Below, one piece after another: positions 7,472 through 63,164 of a DNA stretch of 64,000 nucleotides. Below the pieces are notes generated by a model. That model saw only the letters and a program-made list of their open reading frames with translations. It ran no database searches and was not told the DNA's origin. Every line of letters begins with the position of its first letter. The stretch's first letter is position 1. The translations under genes were made by a program, and so were the position numbers. The stretch comes from a virus, in IMG/VR virus record IMGVR_UViG_3300009509_000001, positions 64,001 through 128,000 of that record, one strand, 5' to 3'.

Positions 7472-7474
7472 GAC

Positions 7475-7505
7475 AAAACAGCCCCGGGCGTTTTTGCCAC
7501 GGGGC
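7475..7505 (-). terminator. Rho-independent terminator
   Basis: GCCCCG/CGGGGC stem followed by TGTTTT, downstream of 7553 gene. Confidence 0.5.
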
Positions 7506-7552
7506 CATCGAATAAGAATGAACTATTACTCTAGCCCCGCGGCGGCTTATTG

Positions 7553-8158
7553 TCAAACTTCGTGCAGGTTGTACTCGCCGCATTTGCAGCAGCATTTGTT
7601 TCCGGGGTCCTGCCACTCGTCACACACGGCACAGGCCACGATGATCGTCATCGTATACTCGTCCTCCGGCTCCTCGCCGAGCACGTCGACGGCCGTGTTC
7701 CACAGGATCTCGGCCGTCTGCTTGAATATCCTGAAGCGCATCCGATTGTAATTGATGGACTTGAATATGTTGTGCTCTTCTGGGTCTTCGTGCCGCTGAA
7801 CGGCCGCGCTCCAGTCCACCAGCATTTCGACCATATCGACCAGGTTCATCCCGTTGATACCGTTCTCGAAATGCTCCGGATGATGGCGGTTGTTCGCGTA
7901 ATGGTGCTTGAGCGCCGGCTGGAGCGAGCCCTTGAGCAGGGCATTGTACTCCTTCGACCCGTACTTCAGTTCGCGGAGTTCGGCCGCGGCCGCGAAGTAC
8001 GGCAGTTCCTCCTTGCGGAGCTTGCTTCGGTCGTGCCGGCGCCCACGCAGGCGCATCAGGTTGCTGACGGCATCCAGCTGTCCTCGTACATTGTGCTGGT
8101 GAATGAGGATGCCGTCGCGTTCTGCCAGTAACTGGTCACGTGTTGGTTCGGGTGTCAT
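7553..8158 (-). CDS. DUF5662-like HD-related protein with C-terminal Cys cluster
   Basis: HDRSK...ALKHHYANNRHHPEHF...DMVEMLVDW. Confidence 0.75.
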   Translation of the reverse strand: MTPEPTRDQLLAERDGILIHQHNVRGQLDAVSNLMRLRGRRHDRSKLRKEELPYFAAAAELRELKYGSKEYNALLKGSLQPALKHHYANNRHHPEHFENGINGMNLVDMVEMLVDWSAAVQRHEDPEEHNIFKSINYNRMRFRIFKQTAEILWNTAVDVLGEEPEDEYTMTIIVACAVCDEWQDPGNKCCCKCGEYNLHEV

Positions 8159-22418: not shown

Positions 22419-22521
22419 GGCATTTCACGGGCGGTTCGCCTGAGCGCCATTGCAGCTTCGTTTACGGCTAATATGCGGCGTTACAGCGGCAACTTCAAGC
22501 GCTGCCGGAAAAAAGGCATGA

Positions 22522-22548
22522 AAAAAGCCGCCGGTCGACCCGGCGGCC
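22522..22548 (-). terminator. Rho-independent terminator
   Basis: GCCGCCGG GTCGA CCGGCGGC TTTTTT on minus strand. Confidence 0.85.
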
Positions 22549-22572
22549 AGGGAGAGAAGAGTCCGAAAGGGT

Positions 22573-25663: not shown

Positions 25664-25825
25664 GGCTGCACCTCCTGTGTTGAAATCTAAAGGGCACTTC
25701 CCTCCCTCCCCTTCGTGAGCCACGTTCGCTCCGTCCAGTTCGGGAGGTGCCGGCGACCCGGCAAGGCAAGAACCCGCCTGCGGGAGCGCGGCGGCGATGC
25801 GCCGTCAATCACGCTCCATGCTTTA

Positions 25826-25854
25826 TCTATAACGGGAGTTTGCCGCTAAGTCAA
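25826..25854 (-). promoter_or_regulatory. Sigma70-like promoter driving the RNA locus
   Basis: TTGACT-N17-TATAGA. Confidence 0.6.
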
Positions 25855-30476: not shown

Positions 30477-31775
30477 TTACTTATTGTCCTCGAGAATGCC
30501 AAGGCACTCCGAAAGAAGCTCGTCGCGTACCTCCTGGCTGTTTACTTTTATCGGCCCGGCTCCCCTTGTACCGATCCGCTGCCATTCGAGCATGGCTTCC
30601 TTTTCAGGGTACTCCACCAGCCTGTATCCGAGCCGGTGTATCATGTTGGTGAACGGCACTTCACTCATTCCCTCGTGTGCGCTTACACCACGTCGGTCCG
30701 TGATTCGCCAATGCGGCAATATCGGGTATTGCAGGTCCTCGGCAATGGTCTGCTCCCGAACCTTGTACAGTATCTCTCTGGTGGTCACTCCGACGCCGCC
30801 GGAGCAGTGGGGCGCTCCCGGATGCCCTATGCCACCGCACATGCCGACGAATCCGATCTGCTGGCCACCTATTCGTATCATGGTCTCGAGTGCGATCTTG
30901 AACACATTGTCGGCAAGCTGTATGCAGTCGTCCTCCACGAAGAACCAGGAGTCGTACGCATGGTGTAACGTGCGGAAGGCATGATCATAGGCCCCGAACG
31001 ATATGCCGATATTCGGCCGCTCCAGCACGTATATCCGACCGTTCGGCGTCTCCTGACCATGCATACTGTAAAGGAAGTCCATGTTTGCCTTGAACGCGGC
31101 ATCGTCCAATATCGGATCATTGGCAAGCGGATAGTTATGAACGAGCAACGTATCCACCGGCATTCCCTGGTCAAGCGTCAGCTCCTTGGCACAGGTGCAC
31201 TTCAGCACGTTCAGGTAGTCCGCTATGGTCTTCGGCGGCTCCCGCCTGGTGCCTGCCCAGCACGCAATGACCTTGGCACTCCTGCCCGTGTGTCGCGGTA
31301 TCGGATCGGACACGTCCAGCCGCACACCAACGTCGATGTCGGTGGTGTCGGTCTCGTAGAATCCTACGTGCTTGTCCACTTTAAGCGCCCGCACATTCTC
31401 GTGCAGCACCCTTCCCGTGAACGCCTGCAGTCCCATGTCGCGGCCGATCTCGCGCAGGGCTTTGTATGCCTTCCACACGTGTCCTTTGCCACGGGCGCTG
31501 GGGGCTATGTCCATCCCTATGCTCATGGTGCGGTTGACGACGTCCTTATGGCCCGTACGCACATAGCCGACGAACTCGCCGGAATCGCCGTCCTCGATGG
31601 CCAGCCATTCAGGTCGATCCGTCCTGAACCACTCGACGGCCTGCTCGATGGTGTAGGCTTCCTGTGTATGCAGCCACTTCAAAGTGTCCTCATGGTTACG
31701 AATCTCGAGCACGGCCGGAAGATCCTGCTCAGTAAGTTCACGAAATCGTACACTGACGCCCATCACAGTCCCCAC
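30477..31775 (-). CDS. GNAT acetyltransferase (PseH/RimL-like) fused to GT-A-like domain
   Basis: LEIRNH, ARGKG, VLHENVRA; RPNIGISFGAY, FFVEDD. Confidence 0.75.
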   Translation of the reverse strand: MGTVMGVSVRFRELTEQDLPAVLEIRNHEDTLKWLHTQEAYTIEQAVEWFRTDRPEWLAIEDGDSGEFVGYVRTGHKDVVNRTMSIGMDIAPSARGKGHVWKAYKALREIGRDMGLQAFTGRVLHENVRALKVDKHVGFYETDTTDIDVGVRLDVSDPIPRHTGRSAKVIACWAGTRREPPKTIADYLNVLKCTCAKELTLDQGMPVDTLLVHNYPLANDPILDDAAFKANMDFLYSMHGQETPNGRIYVLERPNIGISFGAYDHAFRTLHHAYDSWFFVEDDCIQLADNVFKIALETMIRIGGQQIGFVGMCGGIGHPGAPHCSGGVGVTTREILYKVREQTIAEDLQYPILPHWRITDRRGVSAHEGMSEVPFTNMIHRLGYRLVEYPEKEAMLEWQRIGTRGAGPIKVNSQEVRDELLSECLGILEDNK

Positions 31776-32839
31776 TCGTTTATGGTTTTCACAACATGGT
31801 CACGATCGCTGACGGTGAGCCACCATCCGACGGGTATGGAAATCTGACGGTCGTAAAACATGGAGACGCCTGGAAGATCTCGCGAGTACTGACTGAACGC
31901 CGTGAACTCGTCGTTGCGTCGATGCACGGGGCTCGTCGCTATGCCGGCATCCTCCATATGGGTCTGGAACGCCTGTTTATCGTCTACAAGTATGGTGTAA
32001 ACCCAGTATGATGCACGGTCGTCGTACGGGATGAGCGTCACATGCGGGTTCTTTATGGAGTCTGCGTAGTGCCTGGCATTGGCTCTGTGGGATCCGACGA
32101 CGTATTCAAGGCACTCGAGATTACTGAGTCCGATCGAAGCGTTTATGTCGTTCATGTGGAACTTGAATCCGGCCTCCGCTATATCCTGCGCGCACCTGAA
32201 AGACTTTGAAGACTTCCTGGAAAGCCCGTACCAGCGCAACAGCTCGGCACGCTCGTGCTGATCCGGGGGAACGACCAATATGCCGCCATCGCCGCTGGTA
32301 AGATGTTTGATGGCCTGCAGGCTGAAGCATACATAATCACCGCCGGAGTCGGCGACGTGTCTCCCGTCGTACATGGTGCCGATGGCATGAGCCGCATCCT
32401 CTATGATCGGAATGCCGAATTTACGCAATGCCTCGTAGTCGCATGGAACCCCGGCCCAGTCCACGCATACGATTGCTTTGGTCTTGTCGGTGATAAGCCG
32501 CTCGACGGATTCAGGGTCTATGAGCCCTGTAGTCGCGTCGACGTCCGCCCACACGATGTCGGCACCGGAGTTTCGTATGGGTGTGTTCGTCGCCGAGCAT
32601 GTCATCGGTGTCGTTATAACCTCATCCCCGGGGCCGGCGTCCACCATATGAAGGGCGAGAGTTATCGCCGACGTCGCCGAATTCACCGTAAGCGGTCGGC
32701 GCTCACTGTTGAAATAAGCCCGTAGCTTCTCCTCGAACAGGTCCACCACCGGACCCTGGCCTATATATCCGCTATTCAGAACTTCGGTGACGGCGCGTGG
32801 TGCCTCGTCGGACATAAACACCTTGAACAATGGAATCAT
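31763..32839 (-). CDS. DegT/DnrJ/EryC1/StrS PLP-dependent sugar aminotransferase
   Basis: NSATSA, TPMTCSAT, IEDAAHA, FSLQAIKHLTSGDGG, GFKFHMND; AAGGAG RBS. Confidence 0.95.
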   Translation of the reverse strand: MIPLFKVFMSDEAPRAVTEVLNSGYIGQGPVVDLFEEKLRAYFNSERRPLTVNSATSAITLALHMVDAGPGDEVITTPMTCSATNTPIRNSGADIVWADVDATTGLIDPESVERLITDKTKAIVCVDWAGVPCDYEALRKFGIPIIEDAAHAIGTMYDGRHVADSGGDYVCFSLQAIKHLTSGDGGILVVPPDQHERAELLRWYGLSRKSSKSFRCAQDIAEAGFKFHMNDINASIGLSNLECLEYVVGSHRANARHYADSIKNPHVTLIPYDDRASYWVYTILVDDKQAFQTHMEDAGIATSPVHRRNDEFTAFSQYSRDLPGVSMFYDRQISIPVGWWLTVSDRDHVVKTINEWGL

Positions 32840-32864
32840 GTGCGTCTCCTTTGCGTTACGATCT

Positions 32865-32893
32865 AAAGTAGCGGAACTTGCCGCCGGTGTCAA
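32865..32893 (-). promoter_or_regulatory. Sigma70 promoter of the glyco-operon
   Basis: TTGACA-N17-TACTTT. Confidence 0.8.
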
Positions 32894-32901
32894 GCAAAAC
32901 C

Positions 32902-32980
32902 AAAAAGGCCCCGGCTAAATACCGAGGCCCGGATGGGATAGGGATACCGTTACAGTACGTCGGTTTGCCGGGAAAGTCAA
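32902..32980 (-). ncRNA. Promoter-sRNA-terminator cassette 2
   Basis: TTGACT(32980-32975)-N17-TACTGT, ~20 nt C/U-rich stretch, hairpin GGCCTCGG/CCGGGGCC + TTTTT. Confidence 0.65.
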
Positions 32981-33039
32981 GCGAAATCGTTTGGTGAGTG
33001 ATTTTCATGTTGCCTGTGAATTGTAGGAGCCCGGGCACG

Positions 33040-33133
33040 AAAAAGCCCCCATGAACTAAATGATCAGGGGGGCTCGGTGTTTTACCGGGGTGAGAACTTG
33101 GCATAGTATACGAAGGAACTCCGCCGCTTTCAA
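33040..33133 (-). ncRNA. Promoter-sRNA-terminator cassette 1
   Basis: TTGAAA(33133-33128)-N17-TATACT, ~27 nt leader, hairpin GCCCCCC/GGGGGGC + TTTTT. Confidence 0.65.
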
Positions 33134-33144
33134 GCCCCTATACG

Positions 33145-33175
33145 AAAAAAGGCCCCGGATTACCGGGACCTTCTG
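33145..33175 (-). terminator. Terminator ending the virion operon
   Basis: GGTCCCGG TAAT CCGGGGCC TTTTTT. Confidence 0.85.
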
Positions 33176-33202
33176 CACACCAATCGCTACTAGGAGGGAA
33201 AT

Positions 33203-35119
33203 CTATTCGTACGTCGTGACGTCGGGGGCGGCCGGCGGCAGGCCCTGCTGCTTGCGGCGCTCGTTGAGTTTACGCTGCATGGCCTGCATCTTCTGGATGC
33301 TCAGCTGCTCTTCCCGTCGGTTCTCTTCGATGGCGCCGCTTACGTCCGTGTACAGGCCGGGTATGTCACTCGGCCCGAACTTCGGGTTGCTAATGGCGCC
33401 GACGAACGCCGGGTTGTTCACGAAGTCGCCCTGGAACCGCTCGCCGAGCATGCCGCCCACGCCCTTGCGGATACGCTCCGGGTCGCCGGCCGCATCGCGC
33501 TTGATCTTGGCGATGTCCCACAAAGCCTTGTTGATCTGTTCGCGGGAGAGCTGCTCGCGGAACTCCGGCTTTATCGGCAACAGGTCCAGGTTGCGCATGG
33601 TCTTCTCGAGACTCGGGTGATCGCCGTACGAGCCGGCCTTGCCCTTGCTGAGATCCAGGGACGGTGCCGGTGTCTTGTGCTTGGCATAGGCCAGGGCCGC
33701 GGCCGCTCCGCCCAGGCCGAGGCTTGCAAGCCCCCAGCCCAACCGGTTCTCGGGACTGTTCATGGCCTTGATCGCCGAGTAGGCGCTGCCGGCACCGGCC
33801 AGACCCGCGCCGATCTCGTACTTGTAATCCTTGGCGTTCTCCCACATGGCCTTGCCGGCCTTCTTCCAGTCGAAGGCGCTGGTCTTGCGCAGGTCCTTCA
33901 CGTTCTGGTCGGCCATGGCCTTGCGCTTCTTCAGGCTCTTGAGCAGCATGCGGTCGGACTCAGCCGTGTCGGGCTTGCCGGCGAACCGCTTGTTCATGGC
34001 ATGAAGCAGGTACGGCAGTGCCGCGCCGCCCAGGCCGCCAAGCGTGCTCCACAGCAGCTTGTTCTTGTCGGCCGTCAGCCAGCCGAGGCTCGATCCCAGC
34101 GTGCCGCCCACCAGGCCGGCAACCACCGGGTTGAAATTGTATTTGTCGCTCTTGGCCTGCTCGTCGCGCACCAGCTTGGCGTCCTCGAAAGCGGCCAGCT
34201 TGTCGTTGATGTCCATCTGTGCGGCAAGGGCCGCATCGGTCTGGGCACTCCTGCCGCTCTTGTCGGCTTTGCCCACCATCATCTTGTCGGCGACGTACGC
34301 CGATCCCATCGGTACGGCGCCGGCCACTGCGGTCTTGGCCGCCCGTGCCATCGGACGCTGCCGGCCCGCATAGGCCCTGGGCGCCGATCCGAGCGGTCCC
34401 TCGACGCGTTTGCCGACGGCGCTCATGGCGCTTCGTGGCGTAAGCGGGATCTCACGGCCGAGCGTCGGATGGTCCTTGATGTATTTCTTGGCCTTCTTGC
34501 CGCCGAGCAGGTACATGAGGGCGGCGCTGCTGACGCCTGCGGTGGCGCCCATCTGTGCCGTCTCCTTCTGCATGTTGATGCCGAACAGTGGATCGTCCGG
34601 GTAGTCGACCTTGCCGACCGTGGCCTTCTTGTCGCCGTAATGGGCCTGCGCCCCGACGTGCGGCTCTTTGCCGCCGAGTATCAGCTCGACGTTCCCGCCG
34701 ACGGTCTCGCCGCTCGGTTCGATCTTAACCGGGTTGTACTCTCCGACGGTGCGGGCCACGTCGCCGACCTTGCGCTTGACGCTCTCGGGTAGAACGGTGC
34801 TCAACCCTTCCTTGACGCCCTTGATGCCCCTGAGCGTGTCGACCAGTGGCGGCAACGCCGTGTCGATCACCTTGCCGGTGAAATCCTTGTCGCGTCCCGC
34901 CGCTTCGTCGATCTTCGCCTGCTCTTCCGGCGTGCGCTGGCTGCGGCCGTACATCGACAGCATGACCGCCGGTGTGCCCAGCCGCAGGGCTGTGCTGCCC
35001 ATGGCCTTGGGCGCCGCCTTCATGCGGAGAACCGCCGCCTTGCGCTTCCAGGGGTTGGTGAAGAGGGTGCCTTTGCCGGCCGCCGTCTTCTGTATCGGTT
35101 TGTCGAGCAGACGTCCCAT
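33203..35119 (-). CDS. Putative virion protein (KTA leader, multiple Gly zippers)
   Basis: MGRLLDKPIQKTAA; several GxxxG hydrophobic pairs. Confidence 0.8.
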   Translation of the reverse strand: MGRLLDKPIQKTAAGKGTLFTNPWKRKAAVLRMKAAPKAMGSTALRLGTPAVMLSMYGRSQRTPEEQAKIDEAAGRDKDFTGKVIDTALPPLVDTLRGIKGVKEGLSTVLPESVKRKVGDVARTVGEYNPVKIEPSGETVGGNVELILGGKEPHVGAQAHYGDKKATVGKVDYPDDPLFGINMQKETAQMGATAGVSSAALMYLLGGKKAKKYIKDHPTLGREIPLTPRSAMSAVGKRVEGPLGSAPRAYAGRQRPMARAAKTAVAGAVPMGSAYVADKMMVGKADKSGRSAQTDAALAAQMDINDKLAAFEDAKLVRDEQAKSDKYNFNPVVAGLVGGTLGSSLGWLTADKNKLLWSTLGGLGGAALPYLLHAMNKRFAGKPDTAESDRMLLKSLKKRKAMADQNVKDLRKTSAFDWKKAGKAMWENAKDYKYEIGAGLAGAGSAYSAIKAMNSPENRLGWGLASLGLGGAAAALAYAKHKTPAPSLDLSKGKAGSYGDHPSLEKTMRNLDLLPIKPEFREQLSREQINKALWDIAKIKRDAAGDPERIRKGVGGMLGERFQGDFVNNPAFVGAISNPKFGPSDIPGLYTDVSGAIEENRREEQLSIQKMQAMQRKLNERRKQQGLPPAAPDVTTYE

Positions 35120-40740: not shown

Positions 40741-43566
40741 TCATTTGCCGACCGCCCGCTTCACCATGGTCTTGATCTTGCCGGTGTTTTTCGTGACGCC
40801 CTTGGCCTTGTCGTCGTATATGGCGGTGCAATACATGTCCTTGACGCAGGTGATGGGCAGTACCTGGCCAATGTGGGCCATGCACCACTTGTCGATGTGG
40901 TAGCGGGCCTTCCCGTCGTCGCCGCTTGCCCGGGCAGTCAGGATCTTTACCTTCTTGCCGTCGGCGAGCCATGCCTTTACCCGGTCGACCATGGGCTTGA
41001 TCGGTGCGCCGATGTGGCCACGGCCCTTCCATTCGGTATATCGGGCCAGCGTGCCGTCAAGGTCCACGCCGATCCATTCCTTTGCCGGGTCGTATTTGAG
41101 GGCTTTCTTGTGCAGGTCGTATCGTTGTGCGGCCGCCCGCAGCTCTTCCTGCGGTATGCCGACGTTGTGTTCATTGAGCTTGGGCCGTACGGCGTCGGCC
41201 GGTACCCGGAACATACCGCACAGCTCGCGCAGCTTGGCCTCCAGCTGGTCGGCGTCCATCGCCGCGGTCTTCCGCAGCCGTCGACTCAATGCCAGTAAAG
41301 CGGGTGCCGCCAGTGCACCGGTCGCTCCGCCGGCCAAGGCGCCGATAAGCTTGTCGTCGGCGAGCCATGCGCCGGCCGCTCCGCCCAGGCCCAGCCCGGC
41401 CAATGCCGCAGTGCCGTAGCCGCCCGGTGCCTTGGCCTTCGGCTGTTGCGGCTGCGGTTGTGGCCGTGGCGTCTGTGTGACCTGCGGTTCGACGCCTGTT
41501 TCGGGTTCGCCGTTATCGCGCATGAGCAATGCCGTGCCGCCGGCGGTGGCCGCAGTCGCCGCAGTGGCGATCGCCGCCTTCTTGCCGGTCGACATCTTGC
41601 CGGTCGCCGGCGGGTCGGTGATTCTTGCCGTGGGCTTGGCCGGCGGTGGATCGGTGATGCGTGCCGTGGACTTGGCGAAAGGCTCCGGTGCCGGCAGGGG
41701 CTCGAACCACGACCTGTTGTGCGTCGGGTCCGCGTTCCAGTCGTCGCCGTAGCCCATGACCGTTCTTGAATTTACGTTGCGCCCCTTTCCGGTCGCTTCC
41801 TGAAACTTCAGCGCCGTATCCATGTATTCGCCGGCGGCCCGCGAAAGCTTGTCGGAGTCTACGTTGCCCCTGAGCGACGGGTCTTTGCGCAGGCGATCCT
41901 TTATCGCCATGCTGACGTCGTACGGCCCGCGGCCGGACGTGTACGTGTGTCCCGGGTGGACGCGATCGATCAGCTTTTGATGGAGCCGCTGGGCGCGCGG
42001 ACCCTCCAAGTACCGCATCGCGTCCATGTACGGCATTTCGCCGGCCTTCTCGTACATGCGCTTCAGCACGCCGAAAGCGCGGGTCGCGTCCGACTCGAAC
42101 TTGAACGCCGGCGTCTTGGCCGCAGCGGTCTTCGGCAGCAGGTTGCCGACCACCACGAGCCGGTCGCGAAGGCTCGGATTCGCCATGAGCCTGAAATGGG
42201 CGTCCGCCTGCTTCTTCAGCTGCTTGGCCTTGGCGCTGGTGGTCGCCGCCACCGGACCGCCGGCCGGCAACAGCTTCTTGATGCGCAGCGCCAGGAGCTT
42301 GCGGCCGTTGATGGTGGGCTGGCCGTTCTCGTCGGTTCCTATACTTTCAACCTTCACAGGCTTGTTCTTGAATCTGCCTACGAGAACGGTGTCGCCCATC
42401 TCTATGTCGAGCACGATCTTCGCGATCTTGCGCAGCCGCGGGTCGGCCAACCGCTGCTTCAGCCGGATCTCCCGGTCGATCGCCCTGATGTCCATGTGGT
42501 AAGTTTTTATCTCAGCCTGCTTCGCCAGGGGCTTGAGCTCTCCCTTGGTCGGGCCGTCGCTCATGGCCCATTCCTTGAATTCGGCCCACGGCAGTTCGAC
42601 CACGGCGCCGTCGCGGTCCCAGCCGTCCTCGTAGTTCTGCCGGTAGGCTTGCACCGCCTGCTGCTTCGTGACGTAGCCGATCATGCACTTGTGCTCGTCG
42701 AACTTGCCGTCGGCGTCCAGCTGGTTGATCACGTACACGCTCTCGGCGTCCCATATGGTCTCGTCGTGGGGTATGCCCGGATTGATGAAGACGTCGAGAT
42801 GATCCTTGTCGTAGCCCCTGCTGCCGCGGATGTAGCCGTAGTCGTCCCACATGGTCTGGCTCCATTCGTTACCGTCGTCGTCCACTCCGCTCCTGACGGA
42901 CTTGAACGGGTTCTCGATGCTGATGTCCAGGCCGTCGATGGTTACGTGCGCCTTCTTGTAGTTCTCGGCCTTGATCTGGGCCTCGGTCGGCTGTAGCTCC
43001 ATGTCCTGGCCCTTGGCCACCCCATGCTCGACCTCCGCGGCGGTCTTGGCCAGGCGCGGTATGAGCAGCGTACTGTAGCGGTCGGCCGGGTTGCTCCACC
43101 GGATGGCGCTGATCGGAAACTTCTGGCCGCTCACGAAATTGGCGAGCCGTGCGTACTTGGCGGGGTCCACGTCCTTCTTCAGGTAGGCGACGGTGACGTG
43201 CGGCCGGTAGGTCTTGTGCGTTTCGCCCGGCATCCTGACGCCGGCGCGCACCGCCTTGTTCAATGCATGCAGGTCCGGACTGTCGACGTCGAACTTCAGC
43301 ACCTTGTAGTCGCCCTGGTCGAAGTGACTGAGCCCGCCGACGGTACCCTGCCCCTGCAGGATTTCCTTGATCGCCTCCTTCGTGGAGCGCGGGTCGTCTT
43401 CTTCATGCCCGTAGGCAAGCGTGACGTGTGGATGCTTCTCGAGGCCGAACCCGTCCTCGTCGTACAAATCCTCCTTGGCGATGGCGCGCTGGATCATAGC
43501 GATCCGAAGCGCCACGCTCCTGGGCATGTCGATGCCCATCCAACCGTATGATTTTTCTTTAGCCAT
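40741..43566 (-). CDS. Polyvalent protein: 2H phosphoesterase (Acb1-like), InPase-like domain, small beta domain, TM/Gly zipper, HAD phosphatase
   Basis: Two HxT motifs (PHVTL, PHVTV); PTEAQ..AENYKK..ISIENP...YGYI...D.DHLDVF...FDEHK; DLDGT...LTAR...IYDD. Confidence 0.85.
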   Translation of the reverse strand: MAKEKSYGWMGIDMPRSVALRIAMIQRAIAKEDLYDEDGFGLEKHPHVTLAYGHEEDDPRSTKEAIKEILQGQGTVGGLSHFDQGDYKVLKFDVDSPDLHALNKAVRAGVRMPGETHKTYRPHVTVAYLKKDVDPAKYARLANFVSGQKFPISAIRWSNPADRYSTLLIPRLAKTAAEVEHGVAKGQDMELQPTEAQIKAENYKKAHVTIDGLDISIENPFKSVRSGVDDDGNEWSQTMWDDYGYIRGSRGYDKDHLDVFINPGIPHDETIWDAESVYVINQLDADGKFDEHKCMIGYVTKQQAVQAYRQNYEDGWDRDGAVVELPWAEFKEWAMSDGPTKGELKPLAKQAEIKTYHMDIRAIDREIRLKQRLADPRLRKIAKIVLDIEMGDTVLVGRFKNKPVKVESIGTDENGQPTINGRKLLALRIKKLLPAGGPVAATTSAKAKQLKKQADAHFRLMANPSLRDRLVVVGNLLPKTAAAKTPAFKFESDATRAFGVLKRMYEKAGEMPYMDAMRYLEGPRAQRLHQKLIDRVHPGHTYTSGRGPYDVSMAIKDRLRKDPSLRGNVDSDKLSRAAGEYMDTALKFQEATGKGRNVNSRTVMGYGDDWNADPTHNRSWFEPLPAPEPFAKSTARITDPPPAKPTARITDPPATGKMSTGKKAAIATAATAATAGGTALLMRDNGEPETGVEPQVTQTPRPQPQPQQPKAKAPGGYGTAALAGLGLGGAAGAWLADDKLIGALAGGATGALAAPALLALSRRLRKTAAMDADQLEAKLRELCGMFRVPADAVRPKLNEHNVGIPQEELRAAAQRYDLHKKALKYDPAKEWIGVDLDGTLARYTEWKGRGHIGAPIKPMVDRVKAWLADGKKVKILTARASGDDGKARYHIDKWCMAHIGQVLPITCVKDMYCTAIYDDKAKGVTKNTGKIKTMVKRAVGK

Positions 43567-43592
43567 GGGTATAATATAGCCCGGTCATAGCT

Positions 43593-43629
43593 AAAAGAAA
43601 AGGCAGGGTCCTTAAAGGAACCTGCCTGG
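43593..43629 (-). terminator. Terminator separating early-type genes from the virion operon
   Basis: GGCAGG...CCTGCC stem followed by TTTTCTTTT. Confidence 0.75.
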
Positions 43630-43729
43630 ATAATCGGATGATGATGTTACCGGTAATATACACCGGCCATCATCACCCTGCAACCCACATCTTGTGGTTT
43701 GCGTGCGTTTTTTCTCAATATCTTGTGGT

Positions 43730-44113
43730 TTATCCGGCGAACAGATGCCGCAGACGGCTCACGAGGCCCGTGAAGTCGAAGTGCGGCCAGTTCTGATGGT
43801 TGACGATCCGCTGCATGAATTCGCCGCGCTGCTCGTCCATGAGCCTGCAGGCGATCTCGTACTTCTTGCGGCGCAATACGAACGTGCATCCGTAGATGTC
43901 CGAGTCGAAATGCTCCTCGTCGGTCTCCTCGCACAGGGCCACGCGGACCCGGTAGTGGCAGTTGACGATGTCGGTGCTCAGCCGCAGGGTGGCGACGAGT
44001 TCGCAGAACTGGTAGTCCTCGTCCTCTTCGTCCCGTTCGCACGGCGGGTTGAACTCGATGACTCCGAGCGCTCCGAACATCTGCGCCCTGGGCGCGTCGA
44101 TCAATACGTTCAT
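43730..44113 (-). CDS. Hypothetical protein
   Basis: 127-aa ORF with AAGGA RBS. Confidence 0.65.
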   Translation of the reverse strand: MNVLIDAPRAQMFGALGVIEFNPPCERDEEDEDYQFCELVATLRLSTDIVNCHYRVRVALCEETDEEHFDSDIYGCTFVLRRKKYEIACRLMDEQRGEFMQRIVNHQNWPHFDFTGLVSRLRHLFAG

Positions 44114-44679
44114 GATATTTCCTTGATTAGCTTTTCATACATCTTGACCACCGCCTTCGAGTGTTCGACGTTGGCCTTCCATTGGTCGCACAGGCGCTGC
44201 ATGCGTCGCCTGTGCAGGTCCAGTATCAGCTCGGGCACGAGGCTCGACACGTAAAGCGTCGGCTTCTCGACCATCCACTCGGGTGCCGGCTCGGTGAGCC
44301 AGTACTCCTGCAGGATGGGGCAGCGCCACGAACTGACGTTGCCCGCCTGCACGTAGCCCGGTTCCATGTCGATGAGCCGGTACTGGATGCGCACGCTTGG
44401 CCGGTCGTGCCGGTTGCTGTAGCCGCTGCAGAAGACCTTGACCGCCACGCCGAGCGCGCGGTCGGGCTTCTTCACATGCTCGAACATGCCGTGGTCGTCG
44501 GCCACCTGGTCGTCCAGGGACTCGACCTCGAGCGCACGGCACAGGAGCCTTGCGGTCTTGGCGCTCGGCTCCATGTGCCCGTTCTCGATGCGGCTGATGT
44601 GCTGGTACGACACGTCGGCACGCTTGGCCAGTGCGGCCTGGGTGAGGCCACGGGCCTTCCGCAGTTCGCGCAGGTTCAT
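44110..44679 (-). CDS. XRE-family HTH protein with C-terminal extension
   Basis: LRELRKARGLTQAALAKRADVSYQHISRIENG. Confidence 0.85.
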   Translation of the reverse strand: MNLRELRKARGLTQAALAKRADVSYQHISRIENGHMEPSAKTARLLCRALEVESLDDQVADDHGMFEHVKKPDRALGVAVKVFCSGYSNRHDRPSVRIQYRLIDMEPGYVQAGNVSSWRCPILQEYWLTEPAPEWMVEKPTLYVSSLVPELILDLHRRRMQRLCDQWKANVEHSKAVVKMYEKLIKEIS

Positions 44680-45350
44680 CAGTACGCCTTCCCGCCGTGG
44701 CGGTGCGACCGCGTGGCGTTGTAGCGTACCTTGGCGATCATGGCGCCGACCACGTCCATCTTGTTGCCGGCACTGAAGTCCAGGATGCGGATCATGGTGT
44801 CGGCCAGCTCCTCCTCGATGCCGCTGAACTCCTGAATGTGGTCGCTCGGCTTGTTGCCCTTGCGATCCCACTCCATGGCCTCGGCGAGCTCGCTCACCAT
44901 AAGCATGAAGTTCGTGGCATTGTTGTTCGGGTTCTCCCACCAGCCGTTCGCGCGGTTGACGGCGTGCAGCTGCTGCTGGAACTTACGGAGATCCGGCAGG
45001 TCCAGGAAGTCGCTTTCGTCCTTGACGTCCCAGGGGAACGGATAGGTCTCCATGACTTCCCAGTGAAGGGCCGCAAGCCCCGTGCCGAACGACCTTACCG
45101 AATTCATCAGAAGGCAGAAGGTGCCGGTGTTCGCGTACTTGTCGTGCACGTTGATGCCGTTGATGGTCGTCTTCTCGGGATCGATGCCACGGGACTTCTG
45201 GTACTCGAACAGGTTCTGCGGCAACGCGATGAACGGCTGCTTGCCGCGCTCGCGCTTGTACAGCTCGGCGAGCGCCGAGTCGAGCGCGTGCAGAAAGCTC
45301 CTGGTGTCGTCCAGGCTCATGCCCGGAATGGCATTAAGCAGAGTGCTCAT
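44679..45350 (-). CDS. MazG-like nucleotide pyrophosphohydrolase
   Basis: GWW...LMVSELAEAME..R...EEELAD..IRILD...K..YN..R...HG. Confidence 0.85.
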   Translation of the reverse strand: MSTLLNAIPGMSLDDTRSFLHALDSALAELYKRERGKQPFIALPQNLFEYQKSRGIDPEKTTINGINVHDKYANTGTFCLLMNSVRSFGTGLAALHWEVMETYPFPWDVKDESDFLDLPDLRKFQQQLHAVNRANGWWENPNNNATNFMLMVSELAEAMEWDRKGNKPSDHIQEFSGIEEELADTMIRILDFSAGNKMDVVGAMIAKVRYNATRSHRHGGKAY

Positions 45351-63082: not shown

Positions 63083-63164
63083 ATCAGTTCTCCTTTTGGT
63101 TAATGTATGGATGCCGCCGCCTGCGTCAAGCGGCGGCTGTTCTTGGACCCTAGTTACCTTAATA

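What the first reader, a model, noticed from the sequence alone, without database searches (positions are those of the whole stretch)
32865..33175. Tandem promoter-short RNA-terminator cassettes: a miniature sRNA array
Seen on the minus strand, in order: terminator (33145-33175); TTGAAA-N17-TATACT (33133-33105) followed by ~65 nt ending in a GCCCCCC/GGGGGGC-U5 terminator; TTGACT-N17-TACTGT (32980-32952) followed by ~50 nt ending in a terminator; then TTGACA-N17-TACTTT for the glyco-operon. The unpaired 5' parts are pyrimidine-rich (UUCUCACCCC; AUCCCUAUCCCAUCC), i.e. complementary to purine-rich RBS-like sequences. No ORFs. Inference: phage trans-acting sRNAs silencing host mRNAs, or sponges for RNAP or RNA chaperones.
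Basis: partly seen in the sequence, partly recalled or inferred. Interest (0 to 1): 0.75.

Follow-up and report, generated by a model that had tools for sequence, protein, structure and literature searches.

The report
Two candidate phage small-RNA genes in tandem
A 363-base gene-free spacer in a 195-kb uncultured phage holds three strong promoters alternating with three strong terminators, so it probably makes two tiny non-coding RNAs (about 59 and 44 bases) whose hairpin tip also caps a third, much larger RNA of the same phage; nothing has been measured and no related phage could be found for comparison.

Summary
On the minus strand of the spacer 32840-33202, the order is T1, P1, a ~59-nt RNA ending at T2, P2, a ~44-nt RNA ending at T3, then P3 and the DegT sugar operon.

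- **Promoters.** A matrix trained on 12 other promoters of this phage ranks P3, P1 and P2 second, sixth and 18th in the whole genome.
- **Terminators.** Three of the ten strict non-coding minus-strand terminators lie in this spacer.
- **No coding signal.** The 82-codon frame across the spacer has non-coding codon statistics.

New findings:
- T1-P1 and T3-P3 are duplicated terminator-promoter junctions.
- ATTTAG occurs 10 times in the genome. Its only three non-coding copies cap T2, T3 and the terminator of an ~800-nt non-coding region 84 kb away.
- That third terminator is preceded by TTCTCACTCCCATCCC, which joins words from both small-RNA 5' tracts.
- Two more promoter-to-terminator mini-units exist, at 7556-7472 and 43683-43595.

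Best reading (about 0.45): two real small RNA genes. Rivals are by-products of junction duplication, or regulated leaders. No expression data, no relatives and no significant phage targets were found. This is a new member of a known kind, of moderate interest.

The parts
33190..33202 (-). C/U-rich tract (AUUUCCCUCCUAG) in the 3' UTR of the 638-aa gene, upstream of T1
   Evidence: contains the CCUCC anti-Shine-Dalgarno-like word
33145..33170 (-). T1: intrinsic terminator of the upstream virion-protein operon (GGTCCCGG-TAAT-CCGGGGCC plus T6)
   Evidence: -15.6 kcal/mol, strict criteria
33105..33133 (-). P1: promoter GC-TTGAAA-N17-TATACT
   Evidence: matrix score 19.6 bits, rank 6 genome-wide
33040..33098 (-). 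Candidate sRNA1, about 59 nt. It has an unpaired 5' tract UUCUCACCCC (33096-33087), a small hairpin (33087-33075) and terminator T2 (33074-33044, U5 to 33040). The T2 tip is C-AUUUA-G.
   Evidence: fold -21.2 kcal/mol, z -2.3; T2 -14.9 kcal/mol; length estimate; the 5' end is inferred from the -10 position
32981..33039 (-). Spacer between T2 and P2. Its start (TTTTTCGTGCCCGGGCT) resembles the T1-P1 junction (TTTTTCGTATAGGGGCT) but has no intact -35.
   Evidence: repeat D2, 76%
32952..32980 (-). P2: promoter GC-TTGACT-N17-TACTGT
   Evidence: 16.2 bits, rank 18
32902..32945 (-). Candidate sRNA2, about 44 nt. It has an unpaired 5' tract AUCCCUAUCCCAUCC (32945-32931) and terminator T3 (32930-32906, U5 to 32902, second U4 to 32896). 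The T3 tip is U-AUUUA-G.
   Evidence: fold -22.3 kcal/mol, z -2.7; T3 -16.6 kcal/mol
32865..32893 (-). P3: promoter GC-TTGACA-N17-TACTTT of the sugar (DegT / GNAT / glycosyltransferase) operon
   Evidence: 20.3 bits, rank 2; operon content
32837..32852 (-). Ribosome-binding site AAAGGAG and ATG of the DegT-family aminotransferase gene
32860..32934 (-). T3-P3 junction unit, a paralogue of the T1-P1 unit (33176-33100)
   Evidence: local alignment score 23 against 7.8 +/- 1.6 in 2000 shuffles, none as high; alignment A2
7472..7556 (-). Similar mini-unit elsewhere: TTGACA-N17-TAGAGT (overlapping the upstream stop codon), a ~48-nt G-poor RNA, a strong terminator, then the next promoter
   Evidence: promoter 14.0 bits, terminator -20.3 kcal/mol
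43595..43683 (-). Similar mini-unit elsewhere: TTGCAG-N17-TATATT, a ~52-nt RNA and a terminator, just upstream of the polyprotein gene

Best explanation
The spacer carries two independent small non-coding RNA genes in series.

**How the RNAs would be made.** A sigma-70-type holoenzyme starts at P1 and P2. Whether it is the host's or a phage-modified one is unknown. It stops at the intrinsic terminators T2 and T3. This releases RNAs of about 59 and 44 nt. P3 separately drives the sugar operon.

**What the RNAs look like.** Each has a G-free, C/U-rich single-stranded 5' tract. Each ends in a GC-rich hairpin whose tip is a Y-AUUUA-G pentaloop, followed by a U tail. The same module (C/U tract, AUUUA-tipped hairpin, U tail) forms the 3' end of a large non-coding RNA candidate at genome 180,789-180,855. 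The three RNAs therefore form one family.

**Likely action (inferred).** The C/U tracts pair with G-rich, Shine-Dalgarno-like stretches of host or phage mRNAs, as C-rich seeds do in RsaE/RoxS-type sRNAs. The conserved loop would be a handle for a protein, or a stability signal.

**Shown versus inferred.** The sequence shows promoter and terminator quality, the absence of coding signal, the predicted folds and the paralogy. Transcription, RNA ends, targets and any protein partner are inferred.
For: - **Promoters.** A matrix trained on 12 other gene-proximal promoters, with P1-P3 left out, ranks P3 second (20.3 bits), P1 sixth (19.6 bits) and P2 18th (16.2 bits) over both strands of the 194.6-kb genome. 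All three carry the phage-typical GC before TTGA.
- **Terminators.** T1, T2 and T3 pass strict criteria at -15.6, -14.9 and -16.6 kcal/mol. Three of the 10 such non-coding minus-strand terminators lie in this spacer. T1 already ends the upstream operon, so T2 and T3 are surplus unless something is transcribed between them.
- **Genome compactness.** The genome has only 33 gaps of 70 bases or more, totalling 11.4 kb. A useless 363-base spacer would be unusual.
- **No coding signal**, no Rfam family and no tRNA.
- **Shared loop.** ATTTAG occurs 10 times on both strands. Its 3 non-coding copies are exactly the tips of T2, T3 and the terminator at genome 180,789-180,822. The stems are unrelated in sequence but all pair. 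No one-mismatch variant sits in any other terminator.
- **Shared tract words.** The tract before the third terminator, TTCTCACTCCCATCCC, contains TTCTCAC (sRNA1) and TCCCATCC (sRNA2). Composition-preserving shuffles reach both matches in 0.18% of trials. TCTCAC[CT]CC occurs 3 times in the genome, two of them at these sites.
- **Recurring architecture.** Four of the 10 non-coding terminators have a promoter of 14 bits or more placed so as to give a 44-59-nt RNA.
- **Precedent.** Virulent Pseudomonas phages yielded 29 short promoter-to-terminator RNA candidates upstream of genes, some confirmed by Northern blot (PMC10914365).
Against: - No transcript data exist. No RNA run holds the stretch.
- No related phage carries the region, so there is no conservation or covariation test.
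- Predicted pairing of the tracts with the 251 phage translation-start regions is no stronger than for shuffled tracts.
- C/U-rich tracts also precede mRNA terminators (T1; 22520-22547) and hairpins in the retron-like array. They may be part of the terminator unit and not seeds.
- T1-P1 and T3-P3 are duplicates. The sequences after T2 and after the third terminator look like decayed copies of the same junction. Shared words and loops could therefore partly reflect common descent.
- Fold z-scores are modest, at -2.3 and -2.7.
Confidence: 0.45

Rival explanations
1. The units are by-products of duplicated terminator-promoter junctions. The working element is a compact 'stop, then restart' punctuation between operons. 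It was duplicated two or three times here. The result is a triple terminator that insulates the sugar operon from the strongly expressed virion genes. The passenger promoters fire into the next terminator, and the short RNAs have no function of their own.
For: - T1-P1 and T3-P3 align with a score of 23 against 7.8 +/- 1.6 in shuffles.
- The bases after T2, and after the third ATTTAG terminator, resemble the same junction (TTTTT(T)CG...GGGCT...) but lack a usable -35.
- C/U tracts precede ordinary mRNA terminators too.
- The spacer sits at a GC step, from 62-65% upstream to 56-57% in the sugar operon. Such a step is typical of a junction with acquired DNA.
- No targets were found.
Against: - P1 and P2 remain among the best promoters of the genome, although a promoter firing into a terminator would be free to decay.
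- The T2 stem is unrelated to T1 and T3, yet it keeps the ATTTAG tip.
- Stems have diverged completely while the loop is identical in three copies, which points to selection on the loop.
- T1, the only copy that ends an mRNA, is the only one of the four related junction terminators (T1, T2, T3 and the third ATTTAG terminator) without ATTTAG.
- The genome is otherwise tightly packed.
Confidence: 0.3
2. The units are regulated leaders, that is, conditional terminators. Transcripts from P1 and P2 normally stop at T2 and T3, as the lambda pR' 6S transcript stops at tR' and as 5'-UTR premature termination works in phiKZ-like phages. A phage or host factor that recognises the AUUUA-tipped hairpin lets RNA polymerase read through into the sugar operon at a set time. 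At the third site, read-through would run from the large RNA into the genes behind it.
For: - The same loop is conserved on three terminators, each followed by co-oriented genes.
- No matrix-scored promoter lies between the third terminator and its downstream genes.
- Premature termination upstream of genes is documented in virulent phages (PMC10914365).
- The lambda pR'/tR'/Q parallel rests on own knowledge.
Against: - P3, the second-best promoter in the genome, sits 8 bases after the T3 U-run. The operon therefore does not need read-through.
- No convincing alternative (antiterminator) pairing is seen in the folds.
- No candidate antiterminator protein was identified.
Confidence: 0.15
3. The spacer encodes a small protein (82-aa frame 33104-32856, or its 50-aa inner start), or the short transcripts prime DNA replication at an origin.
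For: - Mechanical ORFs exist.
- Tandem promoters in gene-free DNA mark origins in T7 and T4 (own knowledge).
Against: - The ORF scores -0.10 per codon, against +0.33 for genes. It has no ribosome-binding site, its start codon lies upstream of the predicted transcript start, and it crosses two terminators.
- Cumulative GC and AT skew show no turning point near genome position 97 kb.
- There is no AT-rich unwinding element and there are no iterons.
Confidence: 0.05

Closest known systems
[quoted passage not shown]
   Same: In both, a promoter is followed within about 50-200 nt by an intrinsic terminator just ahead of a gene, in a large lytic-type phage. There is no ORF, and the function is unknown.
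   Different: - Here a separate strong promoter (P3) follows the terminator, so sRNA2 is not simply a truncated leader.
- Two units stand in series.
- The RNAs are shorter, at 44-59 nt.
- Nothing has been measured here.
Bacterial base-pairing sRNAs with C-rich seeds (RsaE / RoxS; PMC6158497, PMC8216469)
   Same: Both are small RNAs with their own promoter, unpaired C-rich motifs able to pair with G-rich ribosome-binding regions, and a Rho-independent terminator.
   Different: - There is no sequence relation (Rfam negative).
- The tracts here lie at the extreme 5' end rather than in loops.
- E1 and E2 lack the CCUCC word proper.
- Targets are unknown.
Phage-encoded trans-acting sRNAs (lambda OOP and PreS, 10.1101/2024.10.31.621285; a prophage sRNA of EHEC, PMC13502914)
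   Same: In both, a phage carries a short gene with its own promoter and intrinsic terminator, and its RNA acts on mRNAs.
   Different: - Those are from temperate coliphages and have mapped transcripts and targets.
- No homology was found.
- The host here is unknown.
Lambda pR' - 6S RNA - tR' late-gene control by Q antitermination (own knowledge)
   Same: In both, a constitutive short transcript ends at a terminator directly upstream of an operon.
   Different: - No qut-like element or Q-like protein was identified.
- A strong promoter lies downstream of the terminator.
Tandem terminators after highly expressed operons, such as rrnB T1T2 (own knowledge)
   Same: Both have several intrinsic terminators in a row that give tight insulation.
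   Different: Here each extra terminator is preceded by its own high-scoring promoter, and two of the three share a specific loop.

Membership tests
Independent small non-coding RNA gene (trans-acting sRNA type) | Own promoter | tested here: met
   P1 scores 19.6 bits (rank 6) and P2 16.2 bits (rank 18) with a matrix trained on 12 other promoters of this phage. This is sequence evidence only.
Independent small non-coding RNA gene (trans-acting sRNA type) | Own Rho-independent terminator with U tail | tested here: met
   T2 is -14.9 kcal/mol with U5; T3 is -16.6 kcal/mol with U5.
Independent small non-coding RNA gene (trans-acting sRNA type) | No protein-coding capacity | tested here: met
   The 82-aa frame scores -0.10 per codon, has no ribosome-binding site and crosses two terminators.
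Independent small non-coding RNA gene (trans-acting sRNA type) | Discrete transcript of the predicted size | not testable with these tools
   No RNA run was listed as a holder, and nothing was laid.
Independent small non-coding RNA gene (trans-acting sRNA type) | Seed complementary to target mRNAs beyond chance | tested here: inconclusive
   Best duplexes with the 251 phage start regions are -18.9 and -21.7 kcal/mol, equal to shuffled tracts at -18.7 and -19.9. The host is unknown.
Independent small non-coding RNA gene (trans-acting sRNA type) | Conservation or covariation in related genomes | tested here: inconclusive
   No relative carrying the region was found in any collection. The only evidence is within the genome: three hairpins with unrelated stems and the same AUUUA tip.
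5'UTR premature-termination RNA / attenuator | Terminator lies between the only promoter and the start codon, so that read-through makes the mRNA | tested here: not met
   P3 (rank 2) lies between T3 and the start codon. P2 lies between T2 and the gene.
5'UTR premature-termination RNA / attenuator | Alternative antiterminator pairing | tested here: not met
   No competing helix appears in the minimum-energy or centroid folds of the short RNAs or of the 204-nt read-through RNA.
Known RNA families (Rfam 15) | Score at or above the gathering threshold | tested here: not met
   The best matches are 13-23 bits against thresholds of 51-65. All lie on the terminator hairpins. ARAGORN finds no tRNA or tmRNA.
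Type III antitoxin-like or CRISPR-repeat-mimic RNA arrays | Tandem direct repeats of one unit, or copies of one repeat hairpin | tested here: not met
   Only short, partial direct repeats were found, and they correspond to promoter and terminator parts. The three hairpin stems differ. Likeness to host CRISPR repeats cannot be tested because the host is unknown.

The most novel reading that the evidence does not exclude
The Y-AUUUA-G-tipped terminator hairpin with its upstream C/U tract is a phage-specific 3' handle. It would mark a small regulon of non-coding RNAs: two mini-RNAs and one ~800-nt ornate RNA. A dedicated phage or host protein would read it to stabilise, localise, package or switch these RNAs. 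New members would arise by duplication of terminator-promoter junctions. That would be a simple route for making sRNA genes from genome punctuation.
Probability: 0.15. Interest if true: 0.6.

Novelty: new member of a known kind. Interest (0 to 1): 0.4.

Why it matters
Small RNAs of lytic and giant phages are barely explored, and almost none has a known target. If these two units are real genes, they are among the smallest self-contained phage genes. They also belong, together with a large ornate RNA, to one family defined by a conserved hairpin tip, which gives a concrete handle for pull-downs. The duplicated terminator-promoter junctions also show a plausible way in which new sRNA genes are born. 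If instead they are by-products, the locus is an example of insulation by junction duplication and warns against calling sRNAs from promoter and terminator motifs alone.

Tried and rejected
**Relatives of the region**
- blastn and tblastn against GenBank phages found nothing.
- IMG/VR scans with the 638-aa, 696-aa, 736-aa, 932-aa and 211-aa neighbours and with DegT gave either nothing or only distant domain matches.
- The 638-aa neighbour is alone in the 5.8-billion-protein index. Its best homologue among 1.8 billion representatives is 33% identical.
Their alignment was too divergent to search with. P0002 was not found in IMG/VR or in metagenomes.
- The nearest relative by RNA polymerase (72% amino-acid identity, a 59-kb fragment) covers another part of the genome. 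It lacks the 638-aa gene and any similar terminator.

**Module pattern and operon neighbours**
- The pattern TCCCATCC..GGG..TATTTAGC gave 17 hits in metagenomes and 13 in prokaryote genomes. None is a hairpin with a T-run, so all are chance or coding matches.
- DegT in prokaryote genomes gave only bacterial homologues of 51% identity or less.

**Expression**
- No RNA holder was listed, and three same-study metatranscriptomes laid nothing on the stretch. This is no evidence either way.

**Other checks**
- Phage targets: not significant. Exact complements of 9 nt or more are scattered in coding DNA.
- BLAST of the spacer against the rest of the genome found no extended paralogue.
- Likeness to the retron-like array modules was rejected, because the spacer has no GGCG-N3-CGCC motif.
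- Origin of replication: no skew signal.
- Pfam Sigma70_r2, Hfq and ProQ were not found in the phage.
- The genome search 'relatives' is not available for a virus record.

Full report
**Setting.** The window is bases 64,001-128,000 of a complete 194,576-bp, 59% GC virus record with direct terminal repeats. Nearly all genes lie on the minus strand and the genome is tightly packed. My codon-based gene model gives 251 genes and only 33 gaps of 70 bases or more, totalling 11.4 kb. The finding fills the 363-base gap 32840-33202. Upstream lies a 638-aa gene with no Pfam or PHROG family (33203-35119). Downstream lies an operon of a DegT-family aminotransferase (31763-32839), a protein with a GNAT acetyltransferase domain, and two glycosyltransferase/methyltransferase fusions. 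GC content drops across the gap, from 62-65% upstream to 56-57% in the operon.

**Observation.**
- T1: 33170-33145.
- P1: TTGAAA-N17-TATACT, 33133-33105.
- T2: 33074-33040.
- P2: TTGACT-N17-TACTGT, 32980-32952.
- T3: 32930-32902.
- P3: TTGACA-N17-TACTTT, 32893-32865, followed by AAAGGAG and the ATG.

The predicted RNAs fold with free C/U-rich 5' tracts and terminal hairpins: -21.2 kcal/mol (z -2.3) and -22.3 kcal/mol (z -2.7). Two corrections apply. The 3' arm of T2 is GGGGGC. Mechanical ORFs do exist (82 aa at 33104-32856; 40 aa at 33178-33056). The 82-aa frame scores -0.10 per codon, against a median of +0.33 and a minimum of +0.02 for called genes. It also has no ribosome-binding site and runs through two terminators. 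Rfam gives only sub-threshold matches on the hairpins, and ARAGORN finds nothing.

**Is it more than chance?** The generic consensus scan is not decisive: 2 promoter-like sites against 0.9 expected, and 4 terminator-like sites against 2.3 expected. I therefore used the phage itself as the reference.
- The relaxed pattern TTGNNN-N16-18-TANNNT matches 102 times in the genome. Of these, 21 lie in the 7% that is non-coding, mostly right before genes and usually preceded by GC.
- A weight matrix built from 12 such promoters, with P1-P3 left out, ranks P3 second (20.3 bits), P1 sixth (19.6) and P2 18th (16.2) over both strands.
- Under strict hairpin criteria the genome has 19 intrinsic terminators. 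Thirteen are on the minus strand and 10 of those are non-coding. Three of the 10 lie in this spacer.
- T1 already ends the upstream operon, so T2 and T3 are surplus unless something is transcribed between them.

**Similar cassettes elsewhere.** Four of the 10 non-coding terminators have a promoter of 14 bits or more placed so as to give a 44-59-nt RNA. They are sRNA1, sRNA2, a unit at 7556-7472 and a unit at 43683-43595. An earlier agent of this scan described the last one as an NrdR-gated small-RNA promoter conserved in relatives (note e1-5829300). I confirmed its anatomy but not its conservation.

**A family within the genome.**
- ATTTAG occurs only 10 times on both strands.
- Three copies are non-coding, and all three form the tip of a strict terminator: T2, T3 and a terminator at genome 180,789-180,822.
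- No one-mismatch variant sits in any other terminator.
- In all three the fold gives a pentaloop AUUUA closed by a Y-G pair, on stems that share no sequence.
- As a rough estimate of my own: with a hexamer frequency of 2.6e-5 per position and about 10 possible positions per hairpin top, two further terminators sharing one hexamer has a probability of the order of 1e-5.
- The third terminator ends a roughly 800-nt ORF-poor, hairpin-rich region. Another reader flagged it as an ornate ncRNA candidate. It has no Rfam match.
- The tract before that terminator reads ...CUCACUCCUCUUUUUCUCACUCCCAUCCC. It contains TTCTCAC from sRNA1 and TCCCATCC from sRNA2, side by side.
- Composition-preserving shuffles reach both matches in 0.18% of trials. 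The words are rare genome-wide.

**Origin by duplication.** T1-P1 (33176-33100) and T3-P3 (32934-32860) align from the hairpin through the -35 box and the CGGCGG spacer motif. The score is 23 against 7.8 +/- 1.6 in 2000 shuffles, none as high. The main difference in the hairpin is the loop: TAAT in T1 and TATTTAG in T3. The bases after T2 (TTTTTCGTGCCCGGGCT) and after the third terminator (TTTTTTCGGGGCTGGACAAG) resemble the T1-P1 junction (TTTTTTCGTATAGGGGCTTGAAAG) but lack a usable -35. The locus therefore grew by copying a compact 'terminator then promoter' junction. A promoter of one copy firing into the terminator of the next makes a mini-gene.

**What weakens the seed idea.**
- G-free C/U-rich tracts are rare on the purine-rich minus strand: 22 of 14 nt or more, 8 of them non-coding.
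- They sit upstream of several terminators, including mRNA terminators (22549-22562 before the terminator at 22520-22547; the CCCUCCU tract in the T1 3' UTR) and hairpins of the retron-like array. They may belong to the terminator unit.
- Duplex energies of the tracts with all 251 phage start regions equal those of shuffled tracts.
- Exact complements of 9 nt or more are scattered in coding DNA. The one notable case is a 14-nt perfect match of the third tail inside gene 41,996-44,953 in genome coordinates. By my estimate its chance probability is roughly 0.03-0.1.
- The host is unknown, so host targets cannot be examined.
- The phage has no Hfq or ProQ. Pfam Sigma70_r2 finds no sigma factor, so which holoenzyme reads these promoters is open.

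**Comparative and expression evidence.** None could be obtained. The flanking 638-aa gene has no close homologue anywhere; the best is 33% identical among 1.8 billion representatives. I could not fetch the contigs of its distant homologues. Scans with neighbouring proteins, with DegT, and with the module as a DNA pattern gave only distant or chance matches. The nearest relative by RNA polymerase (72% identity) is a 59-kb fragment covering another region. No RNA run holds the stretch.

**Reading.** I put about 0.45 on two genuine small RNA genes that form a family with the tail of the large RNA. The case rests on these points:
- intact high-ranking promoters;
- surplus strong terminators;
- loop identity across stems that have diverged completely;
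- the compactness of the genome;
- the precedent of many short promoter-to-terminator RNAs in virulent phages, some confirmed by Northern blot (PMC10914365).

Their mode of action is inferred only. It would be C/U tracts pairing with G-rich mRNA stretches, as in RsaE/RoxS (PMC6158497, PMC8216469), with the loop acting as a protein handle.

The rivals are as follows.
- About 0.3: the RNAs are by-products of junction duplication, whose real role is insulation of the acquired sugar operon.
- About 0.15: regulated read-through, in which a loop-binding factor opens T2 and T3. This is weakened by P3 lying behind T3 and by the lack of an alternative pairing.
- About 0.05: a peptide or an origin of replication.

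**Verdict.** This is a new member of a known kind (phage-encoded short promoter-to-terminator RNAs). It has one unusual feature worth following, the AUUUA-tipped terminator shared by three non-coding RNAs. This scan had already noted the same stretch once more (e1-5829295).

Noticed in passing
outside the window: genome 180,587-181,971 (locus L106 1088-2472, minus strand): A 1.4-kb gap with no convincing ORF except a 57-aa frame behind AAGGAGG. About 750-800 nt of it is hairpin-rich RNA-like sequence with no Rfam match. It ends in the third ATTTAG-tipped terminator, preceded by CUCACUCCUCUUUUUCUCACUCCCAUCCC.
   Followed up: partly
window 7472-7556 (-): A promoter-like site overlaps the stop codon of the upstream gene. 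It is followed by a ~48-nt G-poor RNA and a -20 kcal/mol terminator, then immediately by the promoter of the next gene. This is a fourth mini-unit of the same architecture.
   Followed up: partly
whole genome; examples at window 22549-22562 and 33190-33202, and genome 142,315-142,332, 142,742-142,756 and 142,939-142,952: G-free C/U-rich tracts, often containing CCUCC or CUCCU (anti-Shine-Dalgarno-like), are rare on the purine-rich minus strand. They concentrate just upstream of terminator hairpins and inside the retron-like RNA array.
   Followed up: partly
window 32865-33133, 63102-63129 and 25800-25840; genome 139,921: Many promoters of this phage share more than the -35 and -10 boxes. They have a GC before TTGA and a GGCGGCA / CGGCAA motif early in the spacer. 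This suggests a phage-specific promoter class or a regulator site.
   Followed up: no
window 32000-34000: There is a sharp GC step at the spacer, from 62-65% in the virion-protein genes upstream to 56-57% in the sugar operon. This is consistent with the operon having been acquired separately.
   Followed up: no
outside the window: genome 44,786-44,799 (minus strand), inside gene 41,996-44,953: A 14-nt perfect complement (CCCCGGGAUGGGAG) to the tail of the large RNA (CUCCCAUCCCGGGG), 154 nt into a 985-aa gene. It is borderline above chance.
   Followed up: no
window 33177-33197 and genome 142,985-143,005: CCTCCTAGTA(G/A)CGA is shared between the 3' UTR upstream of T1 and a module of the retron-like array. 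It is not significant by BLAST (E = 27).
   Followed up: no
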